In this document: positions 3,501 through 64,000 of the stretch, piece by piece
Layout of the letters: every line of letters begins with the position of its first letter
Numbering within the stretch: the first letter of the stretch is position 1
IMG/VR virus record: IMGVR_UViG_3300033149_000928
Coordinates: 20,414 to 84,413 of that record
DNA: 64,000 nucleotides
Strand: one strand, 5' to 3'
DNA from: a virus
Made by a program: the position numbers and the translations under genes
The notes under the pieces: generated by a model
The model's database searches: none
What the model was told of the DNA's origin: nothing
Seen by the model: the letters and a program-made list of their open reading frames with translations, nothing else

Positions 3501-3520
3501 TTTATCTCCTATGGTAGTTC

Positions 3521-4180
3521 TTATGGACAAGTACGCAGAATATGTATTAACTTAATATTAACATCAACAGAACCTATAGACTCATAACGAAATCTAACAT
3601 AGATACCAGCAGGAATAAGTTTTGCATCTGAACAACAACACTCAAACTCCCAATTAGCCCATACATAATTAGTAGCTGCGAATTGTCCTAATACAAAATC
3701 TGCTCCATAGCCAAGAATATTATCGACATCAACCATTTCCACTTCAACATAATCCCCATCCTCTGGGTTCGCATCTAATTTAAATCCTATTCCTTGTAAC
3801 ATCATATTTTCAGTGTATTTTACTTCATGTTCTAATGTTTCCTCAGCCGTAGCTGTAATATTATATCCTTTACGGAAAATATTATAACCTGTAAGTTCCT
3901 GGAAACCATTCACTTGAACAGGTGCAGGTATATCCTCTGGATTAGGTACACCTGTATGGGCCTCTACAATTGCTTGGAGAGTTGTTTGGTCTCCAGAGGA
4001 CAATACATCTTTAAACCATATGTCTACGGTATCTCCATCCATATCAATATAGTCAACCGCTATTGATATCGAGGATGCGGATATCTCCTCTTGCAATGTC
4101 GTTAAATCTGGTGTTGCTTCTGTTAAACCCGTAAAATCAGTAGTTATTGATTTCGCGTATTTAGTTGGGGTTGGCATCAA
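3521..4180 (-). CDS. Putative virion structural protein
   Basis: 219-aa acidic ORF coupled to its upstream gene in the tail module. Confidence 0.6.
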   Translation of the reverse strand: MMPTPTKYAKSITTDFTGLTEATPDLTTLQEEISASSISIAVDYIDMDGDTVDIWFKDVLSSGDQTTLQAIVEAHTGVPNPEDIPAPVQVNGFQELTGYNIFRKGYNITATAEETLEHEVKYTENMMLQGIGFKLDANPEDGDYVEVEMVDVDNILGYGADFVLGQFAATNYVWANWEFECCCSDAKLIPAGIYVRFRYESIGSVDVNIKLIHILRTCP

Positions 4181-12846: not shown

Positions 12847-12887
12847 TTGCTCCACGGTTTGATTTACTAAATCAAACCGTGGAGCAA
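12847..12887. terminator. 41-bp perfect palindrome (20-1-20) built around the 17-bp motif; possible terminator/operator after the major tail gene
   Basis: TTGCTCCACGGTTTGATTTA-C-TAAATCAAACCGTGGAGCAA. Confidence 0.6.
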
Positions 12888-22972: not shown

Positions 22973-23072
22973 GGGTATAGGGTATAGGGTATAGGGTATA
23001 GGGTATAGGGTATAGGGTATAGGGTATAGGGTATAGGGTATTGGTATAGGGTATAGGGTATAGGGTATTGGT
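22973..23072 (+). repeat. Tandem heptamer (GGGTATA)n, ~14 copies with two TGGTATA/GGGTATT variants
   Basis: Directly visible in the sequence. Confidence 0.95.
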
Positions 23073-24930: not shown

Positions 24931-26282
24931 TTACTCGTTGATATGTATAGACTTACCGGATCGACTATGCCTATTTCTTGTAAGTCCCTTAAAAGTCCCG
25001 ATACTACAAGATATCTTGTAAGTCCTTATGTGACAACGACTTATGAGTGCAACATTTCATTACCTTTGTGGGATTTCCCCACAGTCTCGATTTTTACTTC
25101 TAACCTGTTGATATATAAGGCTTTACCGAGTCTTAAAATCCGACATTGATTCTTGATTTCCTACACTTTTTGTGTAACGATATGTTAAGTCTATATATGA
25201 TAAAAGGTTATGGGGTATGGGTCGCTCAGAATACTATCATATGCTATCATGCCTGATATGGGCTTATATAATGTATTAAAGCAAGTATTGTTCCAGTTTT
25301 GATAATTTCCGATATTAGTTGACCTTATTTTTGATTTTGGTTTATGATTTGATAAACCAAAACCAAGTGTCGGATTTTCCTACGGCACTTTCTGCCGCAT
25401 CATTTTGACACGGCAATTTCTGCCGCTGTAACAAAAGCTTACTTTTGTAACATATTTTTGCGTTTTGTAACAAAAGTTTACTTTTCGACCGATTTTCGTA
25501 TATCCTAGTTTATGCCGGACCCGGTTCGTGATAGATATTCCGGGAAAATTATTGATTTAATAAATCATTTTCACTTTTACAGGGCGGGTTTCATGTTTTC
25601 GGACATCGAACTCTGATAGCGGATAATTCATTTGGACACTTTAATTTTGGTACATTATTCTCTGAGTATTGGTCATGGATGTGGAATATGGATATTTGGG
25701 TGAATTGTAGGTTATTTGGGTGTGGATTATAGGGTGTTTAAAGATGATTTTCACGCATCGGATCTCGGCCAGACAAAACAACAAGACTATGGTTTTCGGT
25801 TTCGGTTCTCGATTGATGGTTTACACGTTTTCGTGTAAGAGACAGAATCGAGGTTATGGGTTTCTCAGACCCCATATCCCTTTACGTAGCAACAACTTAC
25901 TACTTTCCTATATCCCGTAAGTTTTATGTAAGTCTTGATTTCCTACACATAATTAATTTCACTCAGATTATTACATAACCTGTAAAGTCCTAATAGAGCT
26001 ACAAAGCCCTCCACATGTAAAAGCCTTTACACGAAAAGCTGATATTTTCACTCCTTATCTTTTGTTTAGCTTATCGACGAAATAAAAGTACTTATGAGAG
26101 TATATGAGAGTATATGAGAAAGTGTAGGATTCCACCACACTTCTCGTAAGTCGTTGATATGTATATATATATATGTACCTAAAAACGTGTATTTAATATA
26201 AGTCGTTTTCACAAATGCCTTTACCGAATCCCCATTACGTTTTCCTCAGTTTAGACGCAAGCCTTTTGAGGTCAAGGACTTA
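24931..26282. repeat. Cluster of 25-bp imperfect inverted repeats, consensus TAAGTC-N13-GACTTA
   Basis: Copies at 24931, 25019, 25101, 25186, 25875, 26147, 26199 and 26258. Confidence 0.7.
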
Positions 26283-26764
26283 CTACTTCTACTTACTGAC
26301 TGTTTTCTGAGTCACCCATATGGAACAATTATATAATATCTTTTATATGGGGTTAACTGAAAACCATCCAGTTAGTAAGCCCCCGATCCACGGCTCTCGA
26401 CCCCTCTAAGCCTACCCACCAGCAAAGTGCTGAGCATGGGTATACTCCATCCTAAGCCGCTTTGTCAACTTTCCGGGGGCATTGGACCTTGAGCCAAGGC
26501 AAGCCCTTAGAATCGACGACTAACTTAGTCGTAAAGCAAAACGTAAAGAAATGAAAAGAGTAAAAGCACCTGACAGAAAGAGTAAAGCAATGGTAACGAT
26601 ACATTACACACTGAGAAAGGTAAAGGGAAAGGTAAGGTAATGTTACATAGTAACGTATCGTTACACTAAGGGACCAAATAAAATAGCCCAGGAACATATG
26701 TCCCTGGACCACTAGCCAATACCATATTAATTTTAGCCACAATCACAACTCTTGATTTACTAAA

Positions 26765-29581: not shown

Positions 29582-30037
29582 TTATCTCCTAATCAAGAAA
29601 TCTCGCTCAATATCCTTTTGATTTAGTAAATCATTATATAGATGCCAGTTCTCAAAGGATGTAGGTTTACCTTCATCTGTTAAGAGATTACCATGATAGG
29701 CTAACATGAGTGCATCTAAACGGTGTTCTCCATAATGACTGGGGTTAGCTCCTGCTTCTTTAATAAATTTACCTAACTCACCCTGCATCAATACCGACCC
29801 GCGTGGATCACAAGGTAATTTGCTATTAGGTACTTCATATTGAAAACAATCCTCACCCATAGCCCACCAACAGGTATTCATAGCCCATGTGACAATTGTC
29901 TCAGGGGCATTAATACTAATCTCTTTAATCTCATTCCATGTTCGGTAACACACTATTTTCATACTAAACCTCCTATACTTATCTCCTAAACAAACACTAC
30001 GGAGTACAAACAAAATAACATTTCTTCTGTGTTGCAT
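29582..30037 (-). CDS. Hypothetical protein (start likely at MKIV, ~29962)
   Basis: ORF track, GGAGG before the internal ATG. Confidence 0.6.
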   Translation of the reverse strand: MQHRRNVILFVLRSVCLGDKYRRFSMKIVCYRTWNEIKEISINAPETIVTWAMNTCWWAMGEDCFQYEVPNSKLPCDPRGSVLMQGELGKFIKEAGANPSHYGEHRLDALMLAYHGNLLTDEGKPTSFENWHLYNDLLNQKDIERDFLIRR

Positions 30038-34735: not shown

Positions 34736-35421
34736 TCCTCCTTAAACAGTGATCCAGATTCCCAGTCTTTATACTTAGGCTGCACTCCAGCCCAATGTAT
34801 CTTTAATAAAATATCAACCCTCCCATATTTAAAACATCCATCCCTACAAACTGCACAGTGACCAGTCTTATGCTCAAAGGTCTTAGGACAGCGAAAACGT
34901 TTCTCTTTACGTTGTGGCTCTCCAATCCGTACTGTTGACCATTTCTGCTTAACTAATAAACAATATTCTTCCCAAGTAGTAGATGGGTCTATAGAAGCTA
35001 GTACCCTGGCATTACGTCGTGGCATAATAAATTGCCTAATATAACGATCTATTTCAACATCTCTCCATCCTCTTGTTGGTATCCAGAATAACACTTCTGG
35101 ATTATATTGAAGGAGATCAAACACCTTATAGACATCTAAGATTGTAGCAAACGCTTCTCCTCTTGTACAGAGTCTAATGCGTTTAACCTGTTTCTTCTTT
35201 CTTTTAAGAATAACATTTAAAATTAATCCATCTAAATGCTGTCAGAATTTATCATTAATCTTATCGCGAGTCAGCATTCTTTTACCTCGATAATTATAGA
35301 TAGGTATATTATAACAATATAATTTACAGAAATCTGACTGATGCTTACACGATCCACGGCCACGATCAATAGCCCATAATCCTATCTCTTTACAATATCT
35401 AATCGACCCGTAACTCGGCAT
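34732..35421 (-). pseudogene. GP88/radical-SAM-like Cys-motif protein interrupted by one in-frame TGA (35242-35244)
   Basis: Hand translation MPSYGSIRYCKEIGLWAIDRGRGSCKHQSDFCKLYCY...KF*QHLD...RIRLCTRGE...FWIPTR...CP......HCAVCRDGC is one continuous frame. Confidence 0.6.
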
Positions 35422-35809
35422 CCTTCTCTTCCTTCCATTGATTTTGTAAATCAGAAGCTAATTCTAATAGATCATTAGCATATATAGATTGGGCCATTCT
35501 ACCTTCACTAAGAGTCATAAGTGCTTGAATAATTCTTTGTCGCTTAATCTTGGTATCATGATGCTTTTTACCTCTTCGTTTAAGTTTATTCTTTCTATTA
35601 GTAGTAGGATACTTTTCACAAAGTTCTTGATACCATTTTGGATTCGTATTATTAATAACCCTGACACTATGATTACTGTGCTTAGACTCTGGTGCTTTAC
35701 CTAAACCTACTTCCAGTTTATTCTTTTTCAATTGAGTTAACATTATAGATAGAGTTAAACGCAAGTGTTTTGGAGCAATAATCCGTGACCATTTCTGATC
35801 CTTATTCAT
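35399..35809 (-). CDS. Hypothetical basic protein
   Basis: ORF track. Confidence 0.6.
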   Translation of the reverse strand: MNKDQKWSRIIAPKHLRLTLSIMLTQLKKNKLEVGLGKAPESKHSNHSVRVINNTNPKWYQELCEKYPTTNRKNKLKRRGKKHHDTKIKRQRIIQALMTLSEGRMAQSIYANDLLELASDLQNQWKEEKDAELRVD

Positions 35810-35976
35810 TATGGTCCCTTACTACTCTCCCTTAATGCGATGAACAACACGTACTTTTACTACTACAGTCGTACCATTAGGAACACTATCCCCATCCTCA
35901 TGGACAATAGGTATATCCATCCATACCATTCCTCTTTTATTTGTGAACTTATCTTTCTTCTTAATTAACCAACGCA

Positions 35977-36264
35977 TTATTCTCCTCCAAGATTCATATC
36001 GTCATCACTCTCGGTTTTCCTCCATACAGTTAGGATATCATCCTTAACCTTATCTAAAGCACCAAGTAACCAATTCCCACTGTAGTTTCCTGTATCAAAG
36101 TCTACTGTGAATGGTGGACTATGTTTACTTTGATCTGTATTATTCGGATCAATAGCAACTATTGCAAAAGGTATCCTCCTGCGTCTTAACTCCATACAGA
36201 TTTCATCTACCGTGGCTAGTCTTAAATCATTCATGGTCACTGATCCTCCGGCCAAATAAAACAA
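35977..36264 (-). CDS. Hypothetical protein
   Basis: ORF track, likely start at MNDL after GGAGG. Confidence 0.55.
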   Translation of the reverse strand: MFYLAGGSVTMNDLRLATVDEICMELRRRRIPFAIVAIDPNNTDQSKHSPPFTVDFDTGNYSGNWLLGALDKVKDDILTVWRKTESDDDMNLGGE

Positions 36265-36414
36265 TCAGCTTTACCAATAAGGACTGCCCATGCCTCACGT
36301 AGACATTGAAGATATGTCCTATAAGGTATAGGTCTAGCAGGTACCCATTTACCGTTGATTTCTGTCTGAGTTTCTGATGCACATTTCATTAAGTCTTTCA
36401 GTATCCACATACCC

Positions 36415-36720
36415 TTACTCCTTATGGAAGAAGTGCCTATTCCCTTTATTGATAGAACGTAGAACTGGTGTCCTTACTTCCCTTGGCCTTGACTCTTTAA
36501 CCACCACCCATGATTCCCTAGTCCTTATATTATTTTGTATCTTCTTTAATTGTTCTGCTGCCCATTCATTTGCTGCCCATTCATCTTGATAAGGTTTTAT
36601 GTCCACACTATCATGTTCAACCTGCACTCCCCATTGACAGTTTTGACAATCTGTATCAGAACAGGTAGGGCTATATTCAGTATAGTTACTCCAAGGTTTT
36701 GTACAAGTAAAATGTATCAT
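36415..36720 (-). CDS. Hypothetical protein
   Basis: ORF track. Confidence 0.5.
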   Translation of the reverse strand: MIHFTCTKPWSNYTEYSPTCSDTDCQNCQWGVQVEHDSVDIKPYQDEWAANEWAAEQLKKIQNNIRTRESWVVVKESRPREVRTPVLRSINKGNRHFFHKE

Positions 36721-36974
36721 TTACTATCCTTCGCAGCCTCGCCGTTTTGATTTACTAAATCATTATCTTTATCAAATTCTGCAAGCTTCTTATTCAATTG
36801 TTTAAGTTCCAGTTCCTGTTGCTTCTGAATTATCTGCATTTTAAGCGTGGGAGGATAAGTCCTAGATTTCCAATAAGAGAGCAAACAAATAACAAGGAAG
36901 ATAGCTAAAGTATATCTAAACCAATTCTCTTTAATATTTTCAAACATCAATAGCCTCCTTATCAACTTCCACAC
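36717..36974 (-). CDS. Hypothetical single-TM protein
   Basis: TM helix plus coiled coil. Start likely at MFEN. Confidence 0.55.
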   Translation of the reverse strand: MWKLIRRLLMFENIKENWFRYTLAIFLVICLLSYWKSRTYPPTLKMQIIQKQQELELKQLNKKLAEFDKDNDLVNQNGEAAKDSK

Positions 36975-37221
36975 TAAGAGTAAACTTCCTCACAGCATCT
37001 TCCTTATATTGAATACCCATAGCCCTAAGTAAATCACTAGGGTAGAGTCTCCAGGTTATATCCCCACTAGCGACTCCATCTTTCTTCATTTCATCTTGGA
37101 CTTCTCTTTCCATTAACCAAGGGTCTCTACCGCAGATTCTAATGTATTCTTCCTCAGTGACATCCCAACAGAAGCACTCATTATCTCCACTCCATGATCC
37201 AGTTATCGTTATCTCTTTCAT
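36940..37221 (-). CDS. Hypothetical protein
   Basis: AAGGAG RBS. Confidence 0.6.
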   Translation of the reverse strand: MKEITITGSWSGDNECFCWDVTEEEYIRICGRDPWLMEREVQDEMKKDGVASGDITWRLYPSDLLRAMGIQYKEDAVRKFTLSVEVDKEAIDV

Positions 37222-37258
37222 CTTGGCTCCTTAAACATACACATTGATTTAGTAAATC

Positions 37259-37953
37259 ACTCTATAGTACAGTATAAAACTACACCTTACCTTCACACAA
37301 CCTTACTATACACAACTATGCAATACCTTTACATAACAAGACAGCACGGTATAAGACCATACCCTTACTTTACTTTACCTCGCGGTACTGTACTTTACTG
37401 CACCTTCACAACACGTTACTAGAGGCCACTACACAATACCCTCACCTTACCCTCACCTAACAAAACACAACATGACAAGACTATACCATTACCAGACAGT
37501 ACACTACCATGCGCTACGGTGCCTCACCTAACTTCACCTTTACCCAACACTATGGGACAGTACACTACCTTGACAATACCACACAGTATTTTACGTAACA
37601 CTACTACACCATCGCGATACTTCGCCAGACTATACCATAACCACACAGTACCATAACCGTACCGGACAAGATATGACCTTACCATACCATTACCCTACGT
37701 AACCTAACTATACCTTTACTGCACAAAACGAACTAGACCCAACATCGCCATAACGGGACTACGCGTGACTACGCGTGACTACGCGTGACTACACCATTAC
37801 TCGACCCAACCGAACCCCACAGTACCATACCTTTACATCACCTAACCCAACCGCACCATTACAAGACTTCACACCAGATAACTATGCCTTACCATTACTC
37901 TACCCAACACCACCCCTCTACACCATTACTAAACCAAACGTGACCGTACCATC
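37259..37953 (-). ncRNA. Putative guide-RNA array: 114 NNN-GT pentamers in 21 hexamer-delimited units (VIPR-like)
   Basis: Minus strand reads GATGGT ACGGT CACGT TTGGT TTAGT AATGGT GTAGA GGGGT GGTGT TGGGT AGAGT AATGGT... The full hand parse accounts for all 695 bp with a single 4-mer exception. No minus-strand ORF of 60 aa or more. RNA status is inferred. Confidence 0.75.
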
Positions 37954-38584
37954 ACTTCTTCTCTTTCTCGCCACCCTTCTCTCCCACAATCTCATAACTG
38001 ATCCGACCCTTACCACTATTATGCCACTGTCCAAGGGCATTGCGCTTACCATAGTCAAGCCACTCAATGATGTTTGGCCTTAGTTTCTCGTCATAGGTTT
38101 TAATAGTGAATACCAATATATTACCAGCCGGAACGGTTTCGCTACGTGCTAGCGCAACACGCTCACCCTTTGGACCTTGTATCCTTAGTGGACGTATGCA
38201 GATACCCATAACAGGAGGATTACCATCAGGCCCGATAATCATAATCTTTCTCGGAGCGATGAAAATTAATCCATCAATGATCTTCTTGTAAGCAGTCATT
38301 CCTTTACTCTTCGTACCCTCTACCCTACGCAAAGCACTACAGGCATTCTTGAAGAACCCCTTAATCAGATAATCATAGATGAAAGGCTGACCGTTATCAT
38401 CACGATGGAAAACTGTTGTCTGCTTCTTTACTTCGTCCTCGACTTCGGGTAAGGTTGACACTTCATCTGGATCAACACCCTCAGGACGTTTTGAGGCGAT
38501 GAACTCTTCATAGAGTTCTGGATTCGCACTGGCTGTCCCAAGCATCTCCTCAATCAAGGTCGCTTTGATCTGCATCTCAAACAT
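37952..38584 (-). CDS. Stand-alone RAMP / Cas7-like protein (Vipr-like candidate RNA-guided effector)
   Basis: N-terminal strand ATLIEEMLG, PFIYDYLIKGFFKNAC helix (compare P.I....IKG..R), SETVPAG....FTI, and a C-terminal Gly-rich loop LGQWHNSGKGRI. No other cas genes in the window. Confidence 0.8.
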   Translation of the reverse strand: MFEMQIKATLIEEMLGTASANPELYEEFIASKRPEGVDPDEVSTLPEVEDEVKKQTTVFHRDDNGQPFIYDYLIKGFFKNACSALRRVEGTKSKGMTAYKKIIDGLIFIAPRKIMIIGPDGNPPVMGICIRPLRIQGPKGERVALARSETVPAGNILVFTIKTYDEKLRPNIIEWLDYGKRNALGQWHNSGKGRISYEIVGEKGGEKEKK

Positions 38585-38637
38585 GGTTTCTCCTTCAAAA
38601 GAAACACAAACAAACGGCTACGCCACATATTGATTTA

Positions 38638-38907
38638 CTAAATCAAAATTTCAAACACATGAACTACTAAAGTGCCCTTCATCATTTGGAAAGTACCAAT
38701 ATACTTCTTTATATCTGTATGGTTAACTTCATGTCCAGTACCGTGTAATGCAAAGGTTCTTCTTTCATTTTCCTTTGAGTCATCAACTAAAACCCAAAGA
38801 CAAGGTATACCATTCTGCATTTGAACAGTAAGAATTTTAGAATTCTTTGGCATTAGGATATCTAAAGTGTCATTTGTTTCTAGTGGATATTTCCATATTG
38901 TTTTCAT
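38638..38907 (-). CDS. Conserved phage hypothetical protein
   Basis: MKTIWKYPL...MP...IL.VQ.Q...CLW..V...GTGH...YIGTFQ...VHVFE is a widespread phage family. Confidence 0.75.
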   Translation of the reverse strand: MKTIWKYPLETNDTLDILMPKNSKILTVQMQNGIPCLWVLVDDSKENERRTFALHGTGHEVNHTDIKKYIGTFQMMKGTLVVHVFEILI

Positions 38908-39128
38908 CAGTATCGTCCCTCCCGCGAGTGAGAATGACTATATACAAATTCCTCAAGTTTTCTTACTCTTTCCTCCATTGTTAAAGCATCAATAGCCTCA
39001 AAATATTCATTATGTTTTTCTTTATTGGTCTCTGCCTTACAATTAAAACACATATCACTTCGTGGTCGGACTGAATGATGTGTCTCCTCACACCCTATAC
39101 ATGTCCAGTGTGTTATATATGCCATCAA
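38907..39128 (-). CDS. Hypothetical Zn-finger protein
   Basis: CIGC and CFNC. Confidence 0.6.
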   Translation of the reverse strand: MMAYITHWTCIGCEETHHSVRPRSDMCFNCKAETNKEKHNEYFEAIDALTMEERVRKLEEFVYSHSHSREGRY

Positions 39129-39134
39129 TATCTC

Positions 39135-39320
39135 CTAACCAATTGAGTAACCAATGTAATGTGGCCACGTGAAAAACAGAACAGCATAATGAGCTATTCT
39201 ATGTTTCTCTTTGACTGTATCACACGTAGATTGATTCATACCACAAGCAATTAACCATCCAATGATCCATATGAAGATCATTAGTAGTTGTAGATCACTT
39301 AGCATTATGGTTCCTTTCAC
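39135..39320 (-). CDS. Small membrane protein
   Basis: Two hydrophobic segments and a WP motif. Confidence 0.5.
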   Translation of the reverse strand: MKGTIMLSDLQLLMIFIWIIGWLIACGMNQSTCDTVKEKHRIAHYAVLFFTWPHYIGYSIG

Positions 39321-47215: not shown

Positions 47216-47877
47216 CAGACTTCCTCCAGATAAGGAGCCATACGTTTTTGTTCTTTTTGATTTAGTAAATCAACAAGTTGATTGACCTTTTGTTTAGAAT
47301 TAACACGATAATAATTTAACCACATTTTACTTTGTTTTAAAGTTAAAGTGCCCTCAATAATAGTAGCTGTAATTCTACGTTGAATATTGAACCCATCAGT
47401 ACGGTATTCATATACCCATCTAGTATTACATATTATCTCCATTTCTATTCGATCTTTCTCTTGTAGTGCCTTTCGTTTTTCTTCACGTAATTTCTTTTCC
47501 TTTTTTACTTCCTCCCATTCACCATTAGCAATAAGCTGTACTCGTTTCTCATTTGCTATCTTTATAGCATGTTGCTTATCTTTAGCCCAACAAGTTACAT
47601 GAAGTTTAAGTGTAAGCATATCAATATGTATATCACCAACTCTAGCAGCATATACAATATTTGTTTTATCTACATGTGAATCCCCATTATATTCCATATA
47701 CACACTCCATAGAGAATAGTCTTTAGAGGGTCTACTAGAAAGAGGATTCAACATAAACTCTTCAACTTGTCCTCCTGTTGCTTTCGCAACCTCTTCAGCT
47801 AATTCCTTATTCTCAAAAACTCCACATATATGATAATCAGAATACTCCCCTTCAGTTATAACATATATCTCAGGCAT
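47215..47877 (-). CDS. Hypothetical protein
   Basis: IYVITEGEYSDYHICGVF N-terminal domain. C-terminal half resembles 48387-48671. Confidence 0.7.
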   Translation of the reverse strand: MPEIYVITEGEYSDYHICGVFENKELAEEVAKATGGQVEEFMLNPLSSRPSKDYSLWSVYMEYNGDSHVDKTNIVYAARVGDIHIDMLTLKLHVTCWAKDKQHAIKIANEKRVQLIANGEWEEVKKEKKLREEKRKALQEKDRIEMEIICNTRWVYEYRTDGFNIQRRITATIIEGTLTLKQSKMWLNYYRVNSKQKVNQLVDLLNQKEQKRMAPYLEEV

Positions 47878-61125: not shown

Positions 61126-64000
61126 TCGTTTCTCCTTCTTCTCCAGACTCACTACCATATACAATAGTATCAACTTCTCTAGGTAGTTTCATTGTCATAC
61201 AATTCTTCATAGCTCCAAGACTCATAGCCTGGAGATCACGTTTCTTCTTTAGATTCTCTAGTATAAGGACATCTGTTTCCAGGTGAATAATATCAATAAT
61301 AGTAGCACCAAGATTGACATCCATACCTGAACGGTGGATACGATCTTCTGACTGTATCCTACTCTCAGCATTGAAGTCATTACTATAATAAATGATGACT
61401 GGAGATGCTGTAAGATTAAGACCCATACCAGCAGCCCCAGGTTGACCAACAAAAGCTATACGCGGATATTTCTCTAATAGTTCTTTCCGGCGTGGATGGG
61501 TACGATCCATAGCGATAAGGAGTTCATCACTATTTGTTGCTTGGTTTGGATCATCACCTATGGGATTGAAGATATGCCATCCTCGACCATCTACACGTAA
61601 TACAACCCATTTCCTTTCAGTACAAGTCGATGTAATACGATCAATGGACCCAGTGAAACCACCATAGATTACTACTCGACCCTCTTCATCATATTGATCT
61701 AGTAAATCAATAAGGACATTAACCTTTGGGCAGGGCACTTCTTGTACTATACGTGTTTTCTTATCTACTTCTTTTCTTCCACCACACGTATCACAAATAA
61801 CCATTTCCCCTGTAACTTCTTCATCTTCACTTGGTCCCATCCTACTCATTTTAGTATTTAAATCTTCTTCATTATTATTACCTTCTTCATTTTCTTCCTC
61901 TTCACTCTCATATACAGCCGCATTAACTTCTCCAGCGCCTTTACAACGTGGACAGGTTTCTTTACCTACAACCTCTTCCCGATACTGGAATCCATCGCTC
62001 AGTTCCCTTGCCAATGTCAAACCAGTTACAACTCTAGGGGCTGTATCAATAATAGTCTTAGCTACTTGCAATATGGATTGTGTTGGTTTACACTCAATAA
62101 TTTTGTATGTTTTCGCAGGGAGATCAAGACAATCTTCTTTGAAAATAACTACTGCAAGTCCCTTCATACGACGATAAAGTGCCTCTATTTCATTCTTTGA
62201 CTTAGTGAAATGATGGGAACTTACACTTGTTAAGTCATGGTTAATATGATCCTCGAACTCACCACATTCTTTACATTTATTTTCATCATCTAGCCAAGTT
62301 ATTAGATAAGGGTATGTGCCTCCGGTAATCTGTTGTTCACGTTGAACAATTAATCCAAGTCTATTTTTGAATTTATTAATATCTCCTTCTTTTAAGAAAC
62401 CTGGACAACTTACTTCACAATTATGAGCTACAAGACCATTAGCAGAAAAACAATGTTCCTCTGGTACTGTAATATCATAGACATCTTCGATCTTATCCTT
62501 AGTTATTGAAGTTATTTTTGCTGTTTCTTTTGCTCTCCAAGTATGTCTATTTTTTATTCTCTTTTTTAATTTTTTATTTTTTCTAGGTATATTAAAGCCT
62601 ACTCTCTCATAAAAACGTACAGCTTCATTCCCTATTATTATTAATTCATAACTAATTAAAGAAGTATTAATTTCTCTACCTTTTATTTTTGATTTTTTAT
62701 TCTTTTTAGTTTGTAATGTACTATAAATACCTAAAGACTGCAACATTAATTGAACTTTATATATTCTATCTCTATTTACTTGACTCAAGGCTACATACAA
62801 TGTTGATTTCCTAACGTATCCATCAGCATCAAAAAATCCACTAAGAAATCCTTTTATGAAATCACTAGATGCAGATAACATAAGATTAGATATTTCTTTT
62901 TTACTATTTAGCTCCCATTCTTTTATTAATGAATTTATTTTACCCCCATAAATACGTTGAGATTCTCCTTGTATAGATATATTACTTTGATTAAGAATCT
63001 CTTGAACATAAGGCATAATACAAAAATCATCAGGGAAAAATTGCAATAAACCTCGTCCATTTTTATCTATTGATCCATCCCCATATAACAAACCAATAAT
63101 ATATCCATCTTCATATGTTCCGATACCATTCCAAGTATGGTAATGTCCAGAGTTAGATACTACAAGATTATCTCCTTCTTTTAATTCTTGTAATTCTCTC
63201 CAAATTGGAAAACTATCATAATCAACCATAAAACGATGATCTTCTGTAGCCCTTACTGAATAACCTTCTTTTGTTTCGATCTTATATAATTGTTTTGTTC
63301 CTGTTTTAAAGAAACCCTCCGTTTTAATCTTTTTCCCATTCACTATAATATAGCAAGTTTGATTTACTAAATCTTTAACGCTTCGTATACCTTCACTAGT
63401 GTTAATGTAGGTATCGGCAGGTATGCACTGGTTGTACCAATCAGCCGGACTCTTCGGTGCTGGAGAACCAGACAATAAGAGGCAGAAACCCTCCATTTTC
63501 CAGTCCTCTCTGATACCTTCAGCAAGTTGTAAAGCCGCTTGACTTCTAAGTGCCGTAGGTGTTTTAATTTTTGAGGACTCATCAAATATCACTCCATGTG
63601 GGGCTTTATCGTTACCGATCCACCCTCCAATAGTATCTCGTAATCCCTCATAGGTCATTACCACAGGTTTAACTTTACAATCCCATTTCGAAAATTCTAA
63701 TCTAGCTGCTTTCAATGCACTTCTCGGTCCGATCCAATACCAATCATCAAACCCACTTTGCTCCATAACCTCAATAGCCGCAAGGGATTTCCCTGTATTT
63801 TGATGATTAATACCATCATCTGTAAAATAATTTCCATACTTAGGTATCGTCAAATCATAGACTTTTTGATTTGGTAAATCAATGAACTCCGCATTCCTTA
63901 GTGGCAATACCTTCATTCTCTGCAATGAAGCAGGGAATAAATGTTCCGACTCTCTCGCTACTATGAAATGTCCAGGCTTCTCGAAATCTATCTGCTTTAT
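61118..64000 (-). CDS. SNF2-like superfamily 2 helicase with two inteins, partial (open to the window edge)
   Basis: TGKS, VIFDES, LLSGSP, GMGLNLT and QSEDRIHR motifs. The frame has no stop up to 64000. Confidence 0.9.
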   Translation of the reverse strand: MKQIDFEKPGHFIVARESEHLFPASLQRMKVLPLRNAEFIDLPNQKVYDLTIPKYGNYFTDDGINHQNTGKSLAAIEVMEQSGFDDWYWIGPRSALKAARLEFSKWDCKVKPVVMTYEGLRDTIGGWIGNDKAPHGVIFDESSKIKTPTALRSQAALQLAEGIREDWKMEGFCLLLSGSPAPKSPADWYNQCIPADTYINTSEGIRSVKDLVNQTCYIIVNGKKIKTEGFFKTGTKQLYKIETKEGYSVRATEDHRFMVDYDSFPIWRELQELKEGDNLVVSNSGHYHTWNGIGTYEDGYIIGLLYGDGSIDKNGRGLLQFFPDDFCIMPYVQEILNQSNISIQGESQRIYGGKINSLIKEWELNSKKEISNLMLSASSDFIKGFLSGFFDADGYVRKSTLYVALSQVNRDRIYKVQLMLQSLGIYSTLQTKKNKKSKIKGREINTSLISYELIIIGNEAVRFYERVGFNIPRKNKKLKKRIKNRHTWRAKETAKITSITKDKIEDVYDITVPEEHCFSANGLVAHNCEVSCPGFLKEGDINKFKNRLGLIVQREQQITGGTYPYLITWLDDENKCKECGEFEDHINHDLTSVSSHHFTKSKNEIEALYRRMKGLAVVIFKEDCLDLPAKTYKIIECKPTQSILQVAKTIIDTAPRVVTGLTLARELSDGFQYREEVVGKETCPRCKGAGEVNAAVYESEEEENEEGNNNEEDLNTKMSRMGPSEDEEVTGEMVICDTCGGRKEVDKKTRIVQEVPCPKVNVLIDLLDQYDEEGRVVIYGGFTGSIDRITSTCTERKWVVLRVDGRGWHIFNPIGDDPNQATNSDELLIAMDRTHPRRKELLEKYPRIAFVGQPGAAGMGLNLTASPVIIYYSNDFNAESRIQSEDRIHRSGMDVNLGATIIDIIHLETDVLILENLKKKRDLQAMSLGAMKNCMTMKLPREVDTIVYGSESGEEGETNA
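62420..63427 (-). mobile_element. Intein with LAGLIDADG homing endonuclease (336 aa)
   Basis: Q|CIPADT ... ATEDHRF ... IGLLYGDG ... LSGFFDADG ... VYDITV...ANGLVAHN|C. AT-rich relative to its flanks. Confidence 0.92.
63797..64000 (-). mobile_element. C-terminal part of a second intein, inserted in the helicase Walker A motif
   Basis: KVYDLTIPKYGNYFTDDGINHQN|TGKS (block F/G pattern). Confidence 0.8.

What the first reader, a model, noticed from the sequence alone, without database searches (positions are those of the whole stretch)
37259..38584. Solitary RAMP/Cas7-like gene fused to a pentamer-coded non-coding array: candidate non-CRISPR RNA-guided system
Seen: the 210-aa gene at 37952-38584 (-) is followed, starting inside its TGA stop, by 695 bp with a strict 5-nt period. 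The sense strand reads GATGGT ACGGT CACGT TTGGT TTAGT | AATGGT GTAGA GGGGT GGTGT TGGGT AGAGT | AATGGT AAGGC ATAGT... A nearly invariant GT (sometimes GC/AT) alternates with three variable bases. A 5-nt period is incompatible with coding, and the variable positions rule out a simple microsatellite. No cas1/2/3/5/6 genes and no CRISPR repeats are in the window. Established: RAMP/Cas7 proteins have an RRM fold with a C-terminal Gly-rich loop (here LGQWHNSGKGRI) and polymerise on guide RNA at a fixed number of nucleotides per subunit. Inference: each subunit grips the constant GT while the variable bases form a discontinuous targeting code, possibly against competing phages or host genes. From memory this matches the recently reported phage VIPR systems (RAMP plus alternating GGY/NN RNA), which I cannot verify here. 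This array is NNN-GY, so it may be a variant code.
Basis: partly seen in the sequence, partly recalled or inferred. Interest (0 to 1): 0.95.

Follow-up and report, generated by a model that had tools for sequence, protein, structure and literature searches.

The report
Phage VIPR system, staggered guide array
This gut-type phage carries a genuine copy of the CRISPR-like VIPR system described in 2026 preprints, a small Cas7-like protein gene followed by about 22 short five-base-repeat guides, so it is real and tidy but belongs to a known kind.

Summary
A 210-aa gene (37952-38584, minus strand) runs, from inside its TGA stop, into about 695 nt of T-N-N-N-G pentamers (37260-37953). The period is not strict: a one-base slip at a GG splits the array into 22 blocks of 2-10 units.

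This matches VIPR (Vipr protein plus vrRNA array), published in bioRxiv 10.64898/2026.04.26.720920.
- A profile of the protein family hits CRISPR RAMPs at the glycine loop: Cas7 E 2.5e-6, Csm4 E 2.5e-4.
- It aligns over 186 columns to the SUSP1 Vipr family, at moderate confidence: hhalign probability 66.7%, E 5.3e-5.
- 169 of 176 homologous loci have a period-5 array abutting the gene.

The "variant code" is not new. The paper lists YNNNG repeats and "staggered" arrays, although its text does not count the staggered kind among those confirmed by small-RNA sequencing.

This clade differs from the studied type II: no 3' tail, no conserved accessory gene, guides of mostly 5-8 units.

I found no targets, and the reading rule stays open.

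This scan has found the same system on other DNA many times (163 notes).

Verdict: new member of a known kind, moderate interest.

The parts
37952..38584 (-). vipr gene: 210-aa Cas7/RAMP-like protein, with the glycine loop at residues 183-194 (LGQWHNSGKGRI)
   Evidence: ORF. No Pfam or PHROG family. The family profile A3 hits PDB Cas7 at E 2.5e-6 and Csm4 at 2.5e-4. hhalign to the SUSP1 Vipr family gives probability 66.7%, E 5.3e-5. 2149 representative clusters at E<=1e-3.
38590..38596 (-). Shine-Dalgarno-like GAAGGAG, six bases upstream of the ATG
   Evidence: Read directly from the sequence.
37260..37953 (-). vrRNA array. 134 pentamers T-N-N-N-G in 22 blocks of 2-10 units. Blocks are separated by a +1 slip at GG, most often T-A-A-W-G-G-T-R. 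The array starts inside the TGA stop of vipr.
   Evidence: No fold beyond shuffles (z -1.33). No Rfam family. No convincing promoter or terminator between gene and array.
37757..37792 (-). Perfect 10-nt x 3.6 tandem duplication (two units) inside the array. It looks like a recent expansion.
   Evidence: also visible as TCACG CGTAG repeated three times.
38625..38651 (.). Palindromic phage motif TGATTTA-S-TAAATCA just upstream of vipr; one edge of the cassette
   Evidence: 42 strand matches in the window against 0.03 expected.
37239..37265 (.). Second copy of the same palindromic motif, just downstream of the array; the other edge of the cassette
38638..38907 (-). Upstream neighbour, an 89-aa DUF7352 protein. 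It is not a conserved partner of vipr.
   Evidence: PF24043 at E 8e-26 and phrog_3848. A homologue lies near vipr in 1 of 84 loci, the window itself.
36940..37221 (-). Downstream neighbour, 93 aa, no known family. It is not a conserved partner.
   Evidence: 1 of 84 loci.

Best explanation
This is a VIPR (Viral Interference Programmable Repeat) cassette of an uncultured 84-kb phage. It has one vipr gene and a co-transcribed 'staggered' vrRNA array, and nothing else.

Likely mechanism, inferred by analogy with the SUSP1 type II system:
1. vipr and the array are made as one transcript. The array is G/U-rich and unstructured.
2. One Vipr protomer binds each pentamer. It grips the constant G (stacking on W187 of the glycine loop) and the following T (pocket including H188), and presents the variable bases.
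3. The extra G at each block junction breaks the 5-nt register and/or marks a cutting site. The 695-nt RNA therefore yields about 22 short guides.
4. The ribonucleoprotein filaments bind double-stranded DNA of competing mobile elements through a gapped code and silence them.

Shown here: the anatomy, the family-wide coupling of gene and array, the glycine-loop similarity to RAMPs, and fast evolution of the variable positions.

Inferred only: transcription, processing, the binding mode, the reading rule and the targets.
For: 1. Gene-array coupling. A period-5 array abuts the homologous gene in 82 of 83 viral loci and in 87 of 93 metagenome and genome loci. The periodic G lies on the gene-sense strand in all 82 array-bearing viral loci but one, L024.

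2. Protein.
- The 101-sequence family profile hits Cas7 (21bh/8yhd) at E 2.5e-6, and Csm4 at 2.5e-4 and 1.8e-3, all at the last strand plus glycine loop.
- hhalign against the SUSP1 Vipr family (confirmed as Vipr by PDB 36pp_D) gives probability 66.7%, E 5.3e-5, over 186 colinear columns.
- Size is 210 aa against 195 aa for SUSP1 Vipr.

3. Published anatomy matches. The paper names pentamer vrRNAs, YNNNG as an alternative repeat, and staggered arrays in which the end of one vrRNA is the start of the next.

4. Conserved punctuation. 937 of 1013 phase shifts are +1. GG is present at 914 of 935 +1 junctions, with the flanking logo Y-A-A-N-G-G-Y-A-N-W-G.

5. Evolution. Among related arrays the substitution rates at unit positions 1-5 are 0.077, 0.107, 0.121, 0.134 and 0.024, against 0.033 in the flanks.

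6. Protein-RNA covariation.
- SUSP1 R179 contacts the pyrimidine of GGY and aligns with residue 188 here.
- Loci with R188 have C as the commonest base after the G in 104 of 126.
- Loci with H188 have A in 11, T in 4 and C in 4 of 19.
- The trend holds within GC bins.
- The window has H188 and T.

7. Context. The genome is a complete phage (direct terminal repeats). It has no Cas1 and no CRISPR array.
Against:
- Pfam's RAMP model finds nothing in the genome at E<=10. It hits 1 of 39 family members, at E 0.17.
- The smaller profile A1 did not find SUSP1 Vipr at all. Outside the glycine loop the A3-A2 alignment has low confidence.
- No target was found under any of nine skip rules, in 1.26 million local positions, beyond shuffled controls. 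Four exact IMG/VR scans also found none.
- The array has no 3' tail, pseudoknot or ribozyme, and no conserved vap gene is nearby. This departs from the only mechanistically studied type.
- Blocks of 5-8 units give only 10-16 specified bases under the published NN rule. That is short for unique targeting.
- I have no expression data; no sequencing run was listed.
- The covariation and the substitution counts use related loci that are not independent.
Confidence: 0.85

Rival explanations
1. The protein-RNA pair is real but does not guide DNA silencing. The long array would act as a decoy or sponge, for example titrating the Vipr proteins of rival phages, or it would target RNA.
For: - No DNA target was found.
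- Guides are very short: the commonest block size is 5-6 units.
- There is no vap gene.
- The abstract of 10.64898/2026.10.15.759431 reports that vrRNAs can work as redirecting decoys in satellites.
Against: - The cassette carries its own vipr in all 176 homologous loci examined, which were found through that gene, unlike orphan decoy RNAs.
- The variable positions evolve 3-4 times faster than the flanks, as expected for guides in an arms race.
- My target searches had low power: exact matches only, or about 1.3 Mb of local DNA.
Confidence: 0.08
2. The period-5 tract is a DNA-level element, such as iterons, bent DNA or a recombination hotspot, bound by the neighbouring protein. It would not be an RNA.
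For: - No promoter, terminator or RNA family was detected.
- I have no expression data.
Against: - The periodic G is strand-specific and on the gene-sense strand in all 82 array-bearing viral loci but one.
- The array starts inside the stop codon.
- The protein's best matches are RNA-binding RAMPs.
- In the homologous SUSP1 system the repeats are shown to be RNA bound by Vipr.
Confidence: 0.04
3. The periodicity is a compositional accident or a degenerate microsatellite with no function.
For: Tandem Repeats Finder does not call the array, apart from one 10-nt duplication.
Against: - The signal is about 7 sd above the genome background.
- It recurs next to the homologous gene in 169 of 176 loci.
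- The GG punctuation is conserved.
Confidence: 0.01

Closest known systems
VIPR 'staggered vrRNA arrays' with alternative YNNNG/NNNNG repeats (bioRxiv 10.64898/2026.04.26.720920: main text, methods 'VIPR type classification', legend of fig. S18)
   Same: - A stand-alone Vipr-like gene on a phage.
- Pentamer repeats in which only G (plus Y) is constant.
- Consecutive guides with no spacer or tail, offset by one nucleotide.
   Different: I could see neither fig. S18, fig. S17 nor the type tables (supplements are closed, figures are not held). So I cannot say which of the seven types this is, or whether the GG junction logo, the 5-8 unit block size and the lack of a vap gene are described there. 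The paper's text says the ribozyme and single-vrRNA architectures were confirmed by small-RNA sequencing, and it does not include the staggered one.
Type II VIPR of Escherichia phage SUSP1 (KT454805.2; Vipr = PDB 36pp; papers .720920 and .720927)
   Same: - A phage-borne protein of about 200 aa with the glycine loop G-x-G-[DQ]-W-[RH]..G-[RK]-[FI].
- A 5-nt repeat RNA next to the gene.
- One protomer per repeat is presumed.
   Different: - SUSP1 repeats are YNNGG, with 9-16 units in one register (15 in the copy I parsed by eye), followed by a structured 3' tail. Here the repeats are YNNNG, in blocks of 2-10 units with +1 slips, and there is no tail.
- SUSP1 has vap1 next to vipr. Here no partner is conserved.
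- The G1-reading residues of SUSP1 are H17 and D177. Here they correspond to a gap and to Q186, which fits the loss of the first G.
- Sequence similarity is only remote: E 5.3e-5, probability 66.7%.
Class 1 CRISPR Cas7/Csm3 backbone filaments
   Same: - RAMP-type glycine loop.
- Presumed polymerisation on a guide RNA with a fixed number of nucleotides per subunit.
   Different: - No CRISPR repeats and no cas1.
- The step is 5 nt rather than 6 nt.
- The guide information is non-contiguous.
- The system is phage-encoded.

Membership tests
VIPR system | Small stand-alone Vipr protein with a RAMP glycine-rich loop | tested here: met
   The protein is 210 aa. The family profile hits PDB Cas7 at E 2.5e-6 and Csm4 at 2.5e-4, across the last strand and the glycine loop. 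The single sequence gives E 0.23.
VIPR system | RRM core plus thumb domain (RAMP fold) shown by structure | not testable with these tools
The ESM Atlas holds a confident model of its own (pTM 0.80), but its neighbours are unnamed viral clusters. A RAMPs cluster appears only at feature score 0.77, which is a lead and no more.
VIPR system | Homology to an experimentally characterised Vipr (SUSP1, PDB 36pp) | tested here: inconclusive
   - hhalign A3 against A2: probability 66.7%, E 5.3e-5, 186 colinear columns.
- With the smaller profile A1: probability 28.6%, E 6e-4, glycine loop only.
- An HMM search of the SUSP1 genome with A1 found nothing.
VIPR system | Adjacent tandem pentanucleotide array with constant G(G)Y and hypervariable N positions | tested here: met
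   T-N-N-N-G, with G in 95% and T in 76% of 147 units. This is the YNNNG variant named in the paper. An array is adjacent in 169 of 176 homologous loci.
VIPR system | Not associated with a CRISPR array or cas genes; mostly viral or proviral | tested here: met
   The genome is a complete 84-kb phage with terminal repeats. No Cas1 and no CRISPR-like repeats. Other cas families were not searched one by one.
VIPR system | vap accessory gene next to vipr ('typically', per the paper) | tested here: not met
   None of six window neighbours recurs in the other 83 loci. Clustering of all flanking ORFs in 84 loci leaves vipr as the only conserved sense-strand gene. The paper counts six vap genes for seven types, so at least one type may lack one. 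That is my inference.
VIPR system | vrRNA is expressed and co-purifies with Vipr | not testable with these tools
   No sequencing run was listed. This needs experiments.
VIPR system | Targets obey the gapped NN-x (1-nt skip) rule | tested here: inconclusive
   No excess over shuffled guides for any of nine rules. IMG/VR exact scans gave 0, 6, 1 and 0 hits, and none extended.
Type II VIPR (SUSP1-like) | 9-16 in-register YNNGG units followed by a conserved structured 3' tail | tested here: not met
   Blocks have 2-10 units with +1 slips and no tail. Fold z-score is -1.33. No Rfam match. Position 4 is G in only 31%.
CRISPR-Cas class 1 | CRISPR repeat-spacer array and an adaptation or effector cas operon | tested here: not met
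   Pfam RAMPs found no hit in the genome at E<=10.

The most novel reading that the evidence does not exclude
In this very large Vipr clade the reading rule may differ from the published NN-x code in two ways.

- Loss of the G1 pocket (the H17 position is gapped, D177 is Q) may free position 4, so that each protomer presents three bases.
- The conserved GG '+1 slip' may act as a register-breaking full stop that sets guide length at about one filament turn (5-8 protomers), with no RNA tail, ribozyme or accessory protein.

Specificity would then come from a three-base-per-unit code, or from several adjacent short filaments acting together.
Probability: 0.25. Interest if true: 0.6.

Novelty: new member of a known kind. 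Interest (0 to 1): 0.4.

Why it matters
VIPR is a months-old discovery. Its mechanistic rules come from the type II systems (SUSP1 and the P. fulva prophage), with the structures from SUSP1.

This locus belongs to a much larger, mostly gut and rumen phage clade: 2149 representative clusters at 50% identity. The clade is found in contigs assigned to Clostridia, Coriobacteriia, Bacteroidota, Planctomycetota and other groups.

Its members use the least-studied format: YNNNG or NNNNG units, staggered short guides, no tail and no accessory gene. The window offers a compact 1.4-kb cassette bounded by two copies of a phage motif. It could be cloned to test three open points:
- how staggered arrays are cut;
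- whether position 4 is read;
- how 10-16 specified bases can give specificity.

As a find in itself it is a confirmation, not a new kind of system.

Tried and rejected
The metagenome scan found no relative above 51% identity. megablast of the locus against phage records found nothing. tblastn found only 4 records, at 46-47% identity.
- Expression: no RNA holder was listed and no run was listed at all.
- Targets, local: I tested nine skip rules on the window's 14 blocks of 6 or more units, against the phage genome plus all loci held then. Only trivial self-matches of the period-5 rules appeared.
- Targets, family guides: 334 family guides (cores only) showed no excess over shuffles.
- Targets, block pairs: I scored 250 sampled block pairs of 534, with junction offsets 0-2. 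The best hit had 2 mismatches of 22 (a guide from L080 against L013). I judged it chance.
- Targets, IMG/VR: four exact scans gave 0, 6, 1 and 0 hits, and none extended into neighbouring units or blocks.
- Conserved accessory gene: none found. A 39-locus cluster turned out to be common HTH regulators joined by single linkage.
- Hammerhead or other known RNA: none.
- Host or taxonomy: the phage DNA polymerase has no tblastn match in the phage collection at 1e-20, so the host stays unknown.
- Type assignment within the seven VIPR types: not possible. The supplementary tables and data are closed, and figures are not held.
- Rejected reading: a coding tract with frameshifting. A 5-nt period with +1 slips gives no consistent frame, and the ORFs in the tract are short and low-complexity.
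Full report
OBSERVATION

The window is bases 20414-84413 of an 84,413-bp IMG/VR virus record with direct terminal repeats, rated 100% complete.

On the minus strand, a 210-aa ORF (37952-38584) has a GAAGGAG ribosome-binding site. From inside its TGA stop it is followed by about 695 nt with no convincing ORF.

The tract has a strong 5-nt period:
- Identity is 0.47 at lag 5 and 0.445 at lag 10, against 0.21-0.26 at lags 1-4.
- Over the whole genome, the period-5 excess in 200-nt windows has mean -0.011 and sd 0.043. The array reaches 0.30. Only three other windows pass +3 sd, and weakly.

A phase tracker shows that the unit is T-N-N-N-G. G is present in 95% and T in 76% of 147 units, positions 2-4 carry 0.14 bits or less, and position 4 is G in only 31%.

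The register is not strict. It moves by +1 at a GG every 2-10 units, which gives 22 blocks and 134 units. The tracker called 16 +1 junctions and all 16 have GG, usually as T-A-A-W-G-G-T-R. A perfect 10-nt x 3.6 duplication lies inside the array.

WHAT IT IS

bioRxiv 10.64898/2026.04.26.720920. I read the Results, the Discussion and methods sections 18 and 20, plus passages of the figure legends. It describes:
- VIPR: a phage-borne ancestral RAMP (Vipr) and vrRNAs made of YNNGG pentamers.
- A 1-nt-skip gapped code for double-stranded DNA.
- Seven types.
- Alternative repeats NNNGG, YNNNG and NNNNG.
- 'Staggered arrays with overlapping vrRNAs', in which the end of one vrRNA is the start of the next.

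bioRxiv .720927, sections 5 and 6. It gives the filament structure:
- One protomer binds per repeat.
- G1 is read by H17 and D177.
- G2 is read by R138 and W178.
- The pyrimidine sits in a pocket that includes R179.

10.64898/2026.10.15.759431, abstract and outline only. It shows the role in competition between phage and satellite.

The window's unit is therefore the published YNNNG variant. Its +1 junctions fit the published description of a staggered array.

PROTEIN

No Pfam or PHROG family matches. Pfam's RAMP model finds nothing in the genome, and it hits only 1 of 39 family members, at E 0.17.

The family is large:
- 799 clusters at 90% identity with E<=1e-3.
- 2149 representatives at 50% identity, of which 879 have E<=1e-30.

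A 39-sequence profile gave PDB Cas7 at E 0.013 and Csm4 at 0.041. A more diverse 101-sequence profile (A3) gave the following, all over the last beta-strand and the glycine loop:
- Cas7 (21bh/8yhd) at 2.5e-6.
- Csm4 at 2.5e-4 and 1.8e-3.
- Csm3 at 0.74.

I located SUSP1 Vipr in KT454805.2. A profile of its family matches PDB 36pp_D, named 'SUSP1 Vipr protein', at E 1e-81.

Profile-profile comparison of the two families:
- With A1: probability 28.6%, E 6e-4, glycine loop only.
- With A3: probability 66.7%, E 5.3e-5, over 186 colinear columns.

The loops are alike: YG..GLGQW[RH]NSGKGR[FI] against NAG..IGLGDWRPRFGRF.

In that alignment, SUSP1 W178 corresponds to the invariant W187 and R179 to R/H188. 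The two G1-reading residues have no equivalent here: D177 is Q186 and H17 falls in a gap. That fits the loss of the first G in the repeat, but it is an inference from a remote alignment.

The ESM Atlas holds a confident model of its own (pTM 0.80), but its structural neighbours are unnamed viral clusters.

GENE-ARRAY COUPLING

In 80 IMG/VR loci plus 3 GenBank gut-phage records, 82 of 83 have a period-5 array abutting the gene, upstream or downstream or both. L038 is the exception.

In 13 metagenome loci and 80 loci from GTDB genomes, 87 of 93 do. Three of the six misses are contigs of about 2.5 kb or less with one flank missing or cut to under 300 bp.

The periodic G is on the gene-sense strand in all 82 array-bearing viral loci but one.

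The staggered layout holds across the family:
- 937 of 1013 phase shifts are +1. The others are 33 at +2, 31 at -1 and 12 at +3.
- The commonest block size is 5-6 units.
- GG is present at 914 of 935 +1 junctions, within the logo Y-A-A-N-G-G-Y-A-N-W-G.

By contrast, the SUSP1 array copy that I parsed by eye has 15 in-register units and a hairpin tail.

EVOLUTION AND COVARIATION

In 107 alignments of related arrays (75-99.9% identity; the pairs are not independent), the substitution rates are:
- Unit positions 1-5: 0.077, 0.107, 0.121, 0.134 and 0.024.
- Flanking, non-unit sequence: 0.033.

So the constant G is protected, and the three N positions evolve three to four times faster than the neighbourhood. 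In one group of near-identical phages (L022 and relatives), the upstream arrays are 99% identical while the downstream arrays are only 75-84% identical.

Across 147 loci, the residue at position 188 tracks the base after the G:
- With R188, C is the commonest base in 104 of 126 loci.
- With H188, the commonest base is A in 11, T in 4 and C in 4 of 19 loci.

The trend persists inside GC bins. The window itself was missed by my regular expression. It has H188 and T. The result is suggestive of direct readout by the glycine loop, but it has not been corrected for phylogeny.

SURROUNDINGS

The cassette lies in a minus-strand block of replication genes: DNA polymerase, helicase, ligase and a ParB-like protein. 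Its GC content (0.44-0.47) is higher than that of its flanks (0.34-0.40).

It is bracketed by two copies of a palindrome, TGATTTA-S-TAAATCA. That motif occurs 42 times (strand matches) in the window against 0.03 expected.

Between gene and array there is no convincing promoter or terminator. There is no Rfam family, and the array folds no better than shuffles (z -1.33). This is consistent with co-transcription and an unstructured guide RNA.

None of six neighbouring genes recurs near vipr in the other 83 loci, and no other sense-strand gene is conserved. This clade therefore seems to have no vap gene.

TARGETS

All searches were negative:
- Nine skip rules on the window's blocks.
- Nine skip rules on 334 family guides, and three rules with junction offsets 0-2 on 250 of 534 block pairs. 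These gave no excess over shuffled guides in about 1.26 million local positions.
- Four exact scans of IMG/VR. These gave 0, 6, 1 and 0 hits, none extending into flanking units.

The power was low: the collection scans needed exact matches, and no host genome is known.

The reading rule therefore remains open. Under the published NN-x code, a 5-8 unit block specifies only 10-16 bases.

VERDICT

This is a real, well-formed VIPR cassette. It is a new member of a kind published in 2026, in the least-studied format: YNNNG units, staggered array, no tail, no vap.

Its hope of a new code is not, because that variant is already named in the paper.

This scan has noted the same system on other DNA many times (163 notes). 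That includes the same format (e1-5666124, e1-5869227) and relatives of this protein.

What remains worth testing is how staggered arrays are processed and read. The paper's text does not list them among the architectures confirmed by small-RNA sequencing. Supplementary tables and figures that I could not see may already answer part of this.

Noticed in passing
window, about 30 intergenic sites, e.g. 912-938, 12854-12880, 29613-29639, 36742-36768, 47252-47278, 61689-61715: A 15-bp palindrome, TGATTTA-S-TAAATCA, recurs 42 times (strand matches) against 0.03 expected. It mostly lies between genes and it brackets the VIPR cassette. It is probably a phage-specific operator, promoter or terminator signal.
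   Followed up: partly
window 26520-26660 (+), inside the ORF-poor gap 26213-26764: An A/G-rich stretch with weak 5-nt periodicity (excess 0.15, second only to the array), hairpins, and the palindromic motif next to it. It could be a solo vrRNA-like or some other non-coding RNA. The evidence is weak.
   Followed up: partly
window 22973-23068: The heptamer GGGTATA repeated 13.9 times at 95% match. Unexplained.
   Followed up: no
L018 4026-6575 (IMGVR_UViG_3300035520_000350, a 243-kb contig): A relative carries a period-5 array of at least 2.5 kb that runs to the end of the fetched locus. It has 61 blocks and 474 units.
   Followed up: no
L022, L023, L026, L028, L031, L032: arrays at 2601-2925 and at about 3501-3875: In near-identical phages the upstream arrays are 99% identical, while the downstream arrays are only 75-84% identical. 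The two arrays of one cassette evolve at very different speeds.
   Followed up: partly
P0241 (458 aa) and P0244 (432 aa): Two family members match the Vipr profile in two stretches. They may be tandem double-Vipr fusions, or gene calls merged across two genes.
   Followed up: no
L179 (Promethearchaeota MAG contig WJMJ01000154.1) and L171 (Anaerolineales MAG): These homologues have full flanks but no period-5 array at my threshold. They may be orphan vipr genes, or their repeats may be too degenerate to detect.
   Followed up: no
window 37800-38400 against 35000-37000 and 38600-39200: The vipr gene and the array have GC 0.44-0.47, against 0.34-0.40 in the flanking genes. This fits a horizontally acquired cassette.
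   Followed up: no
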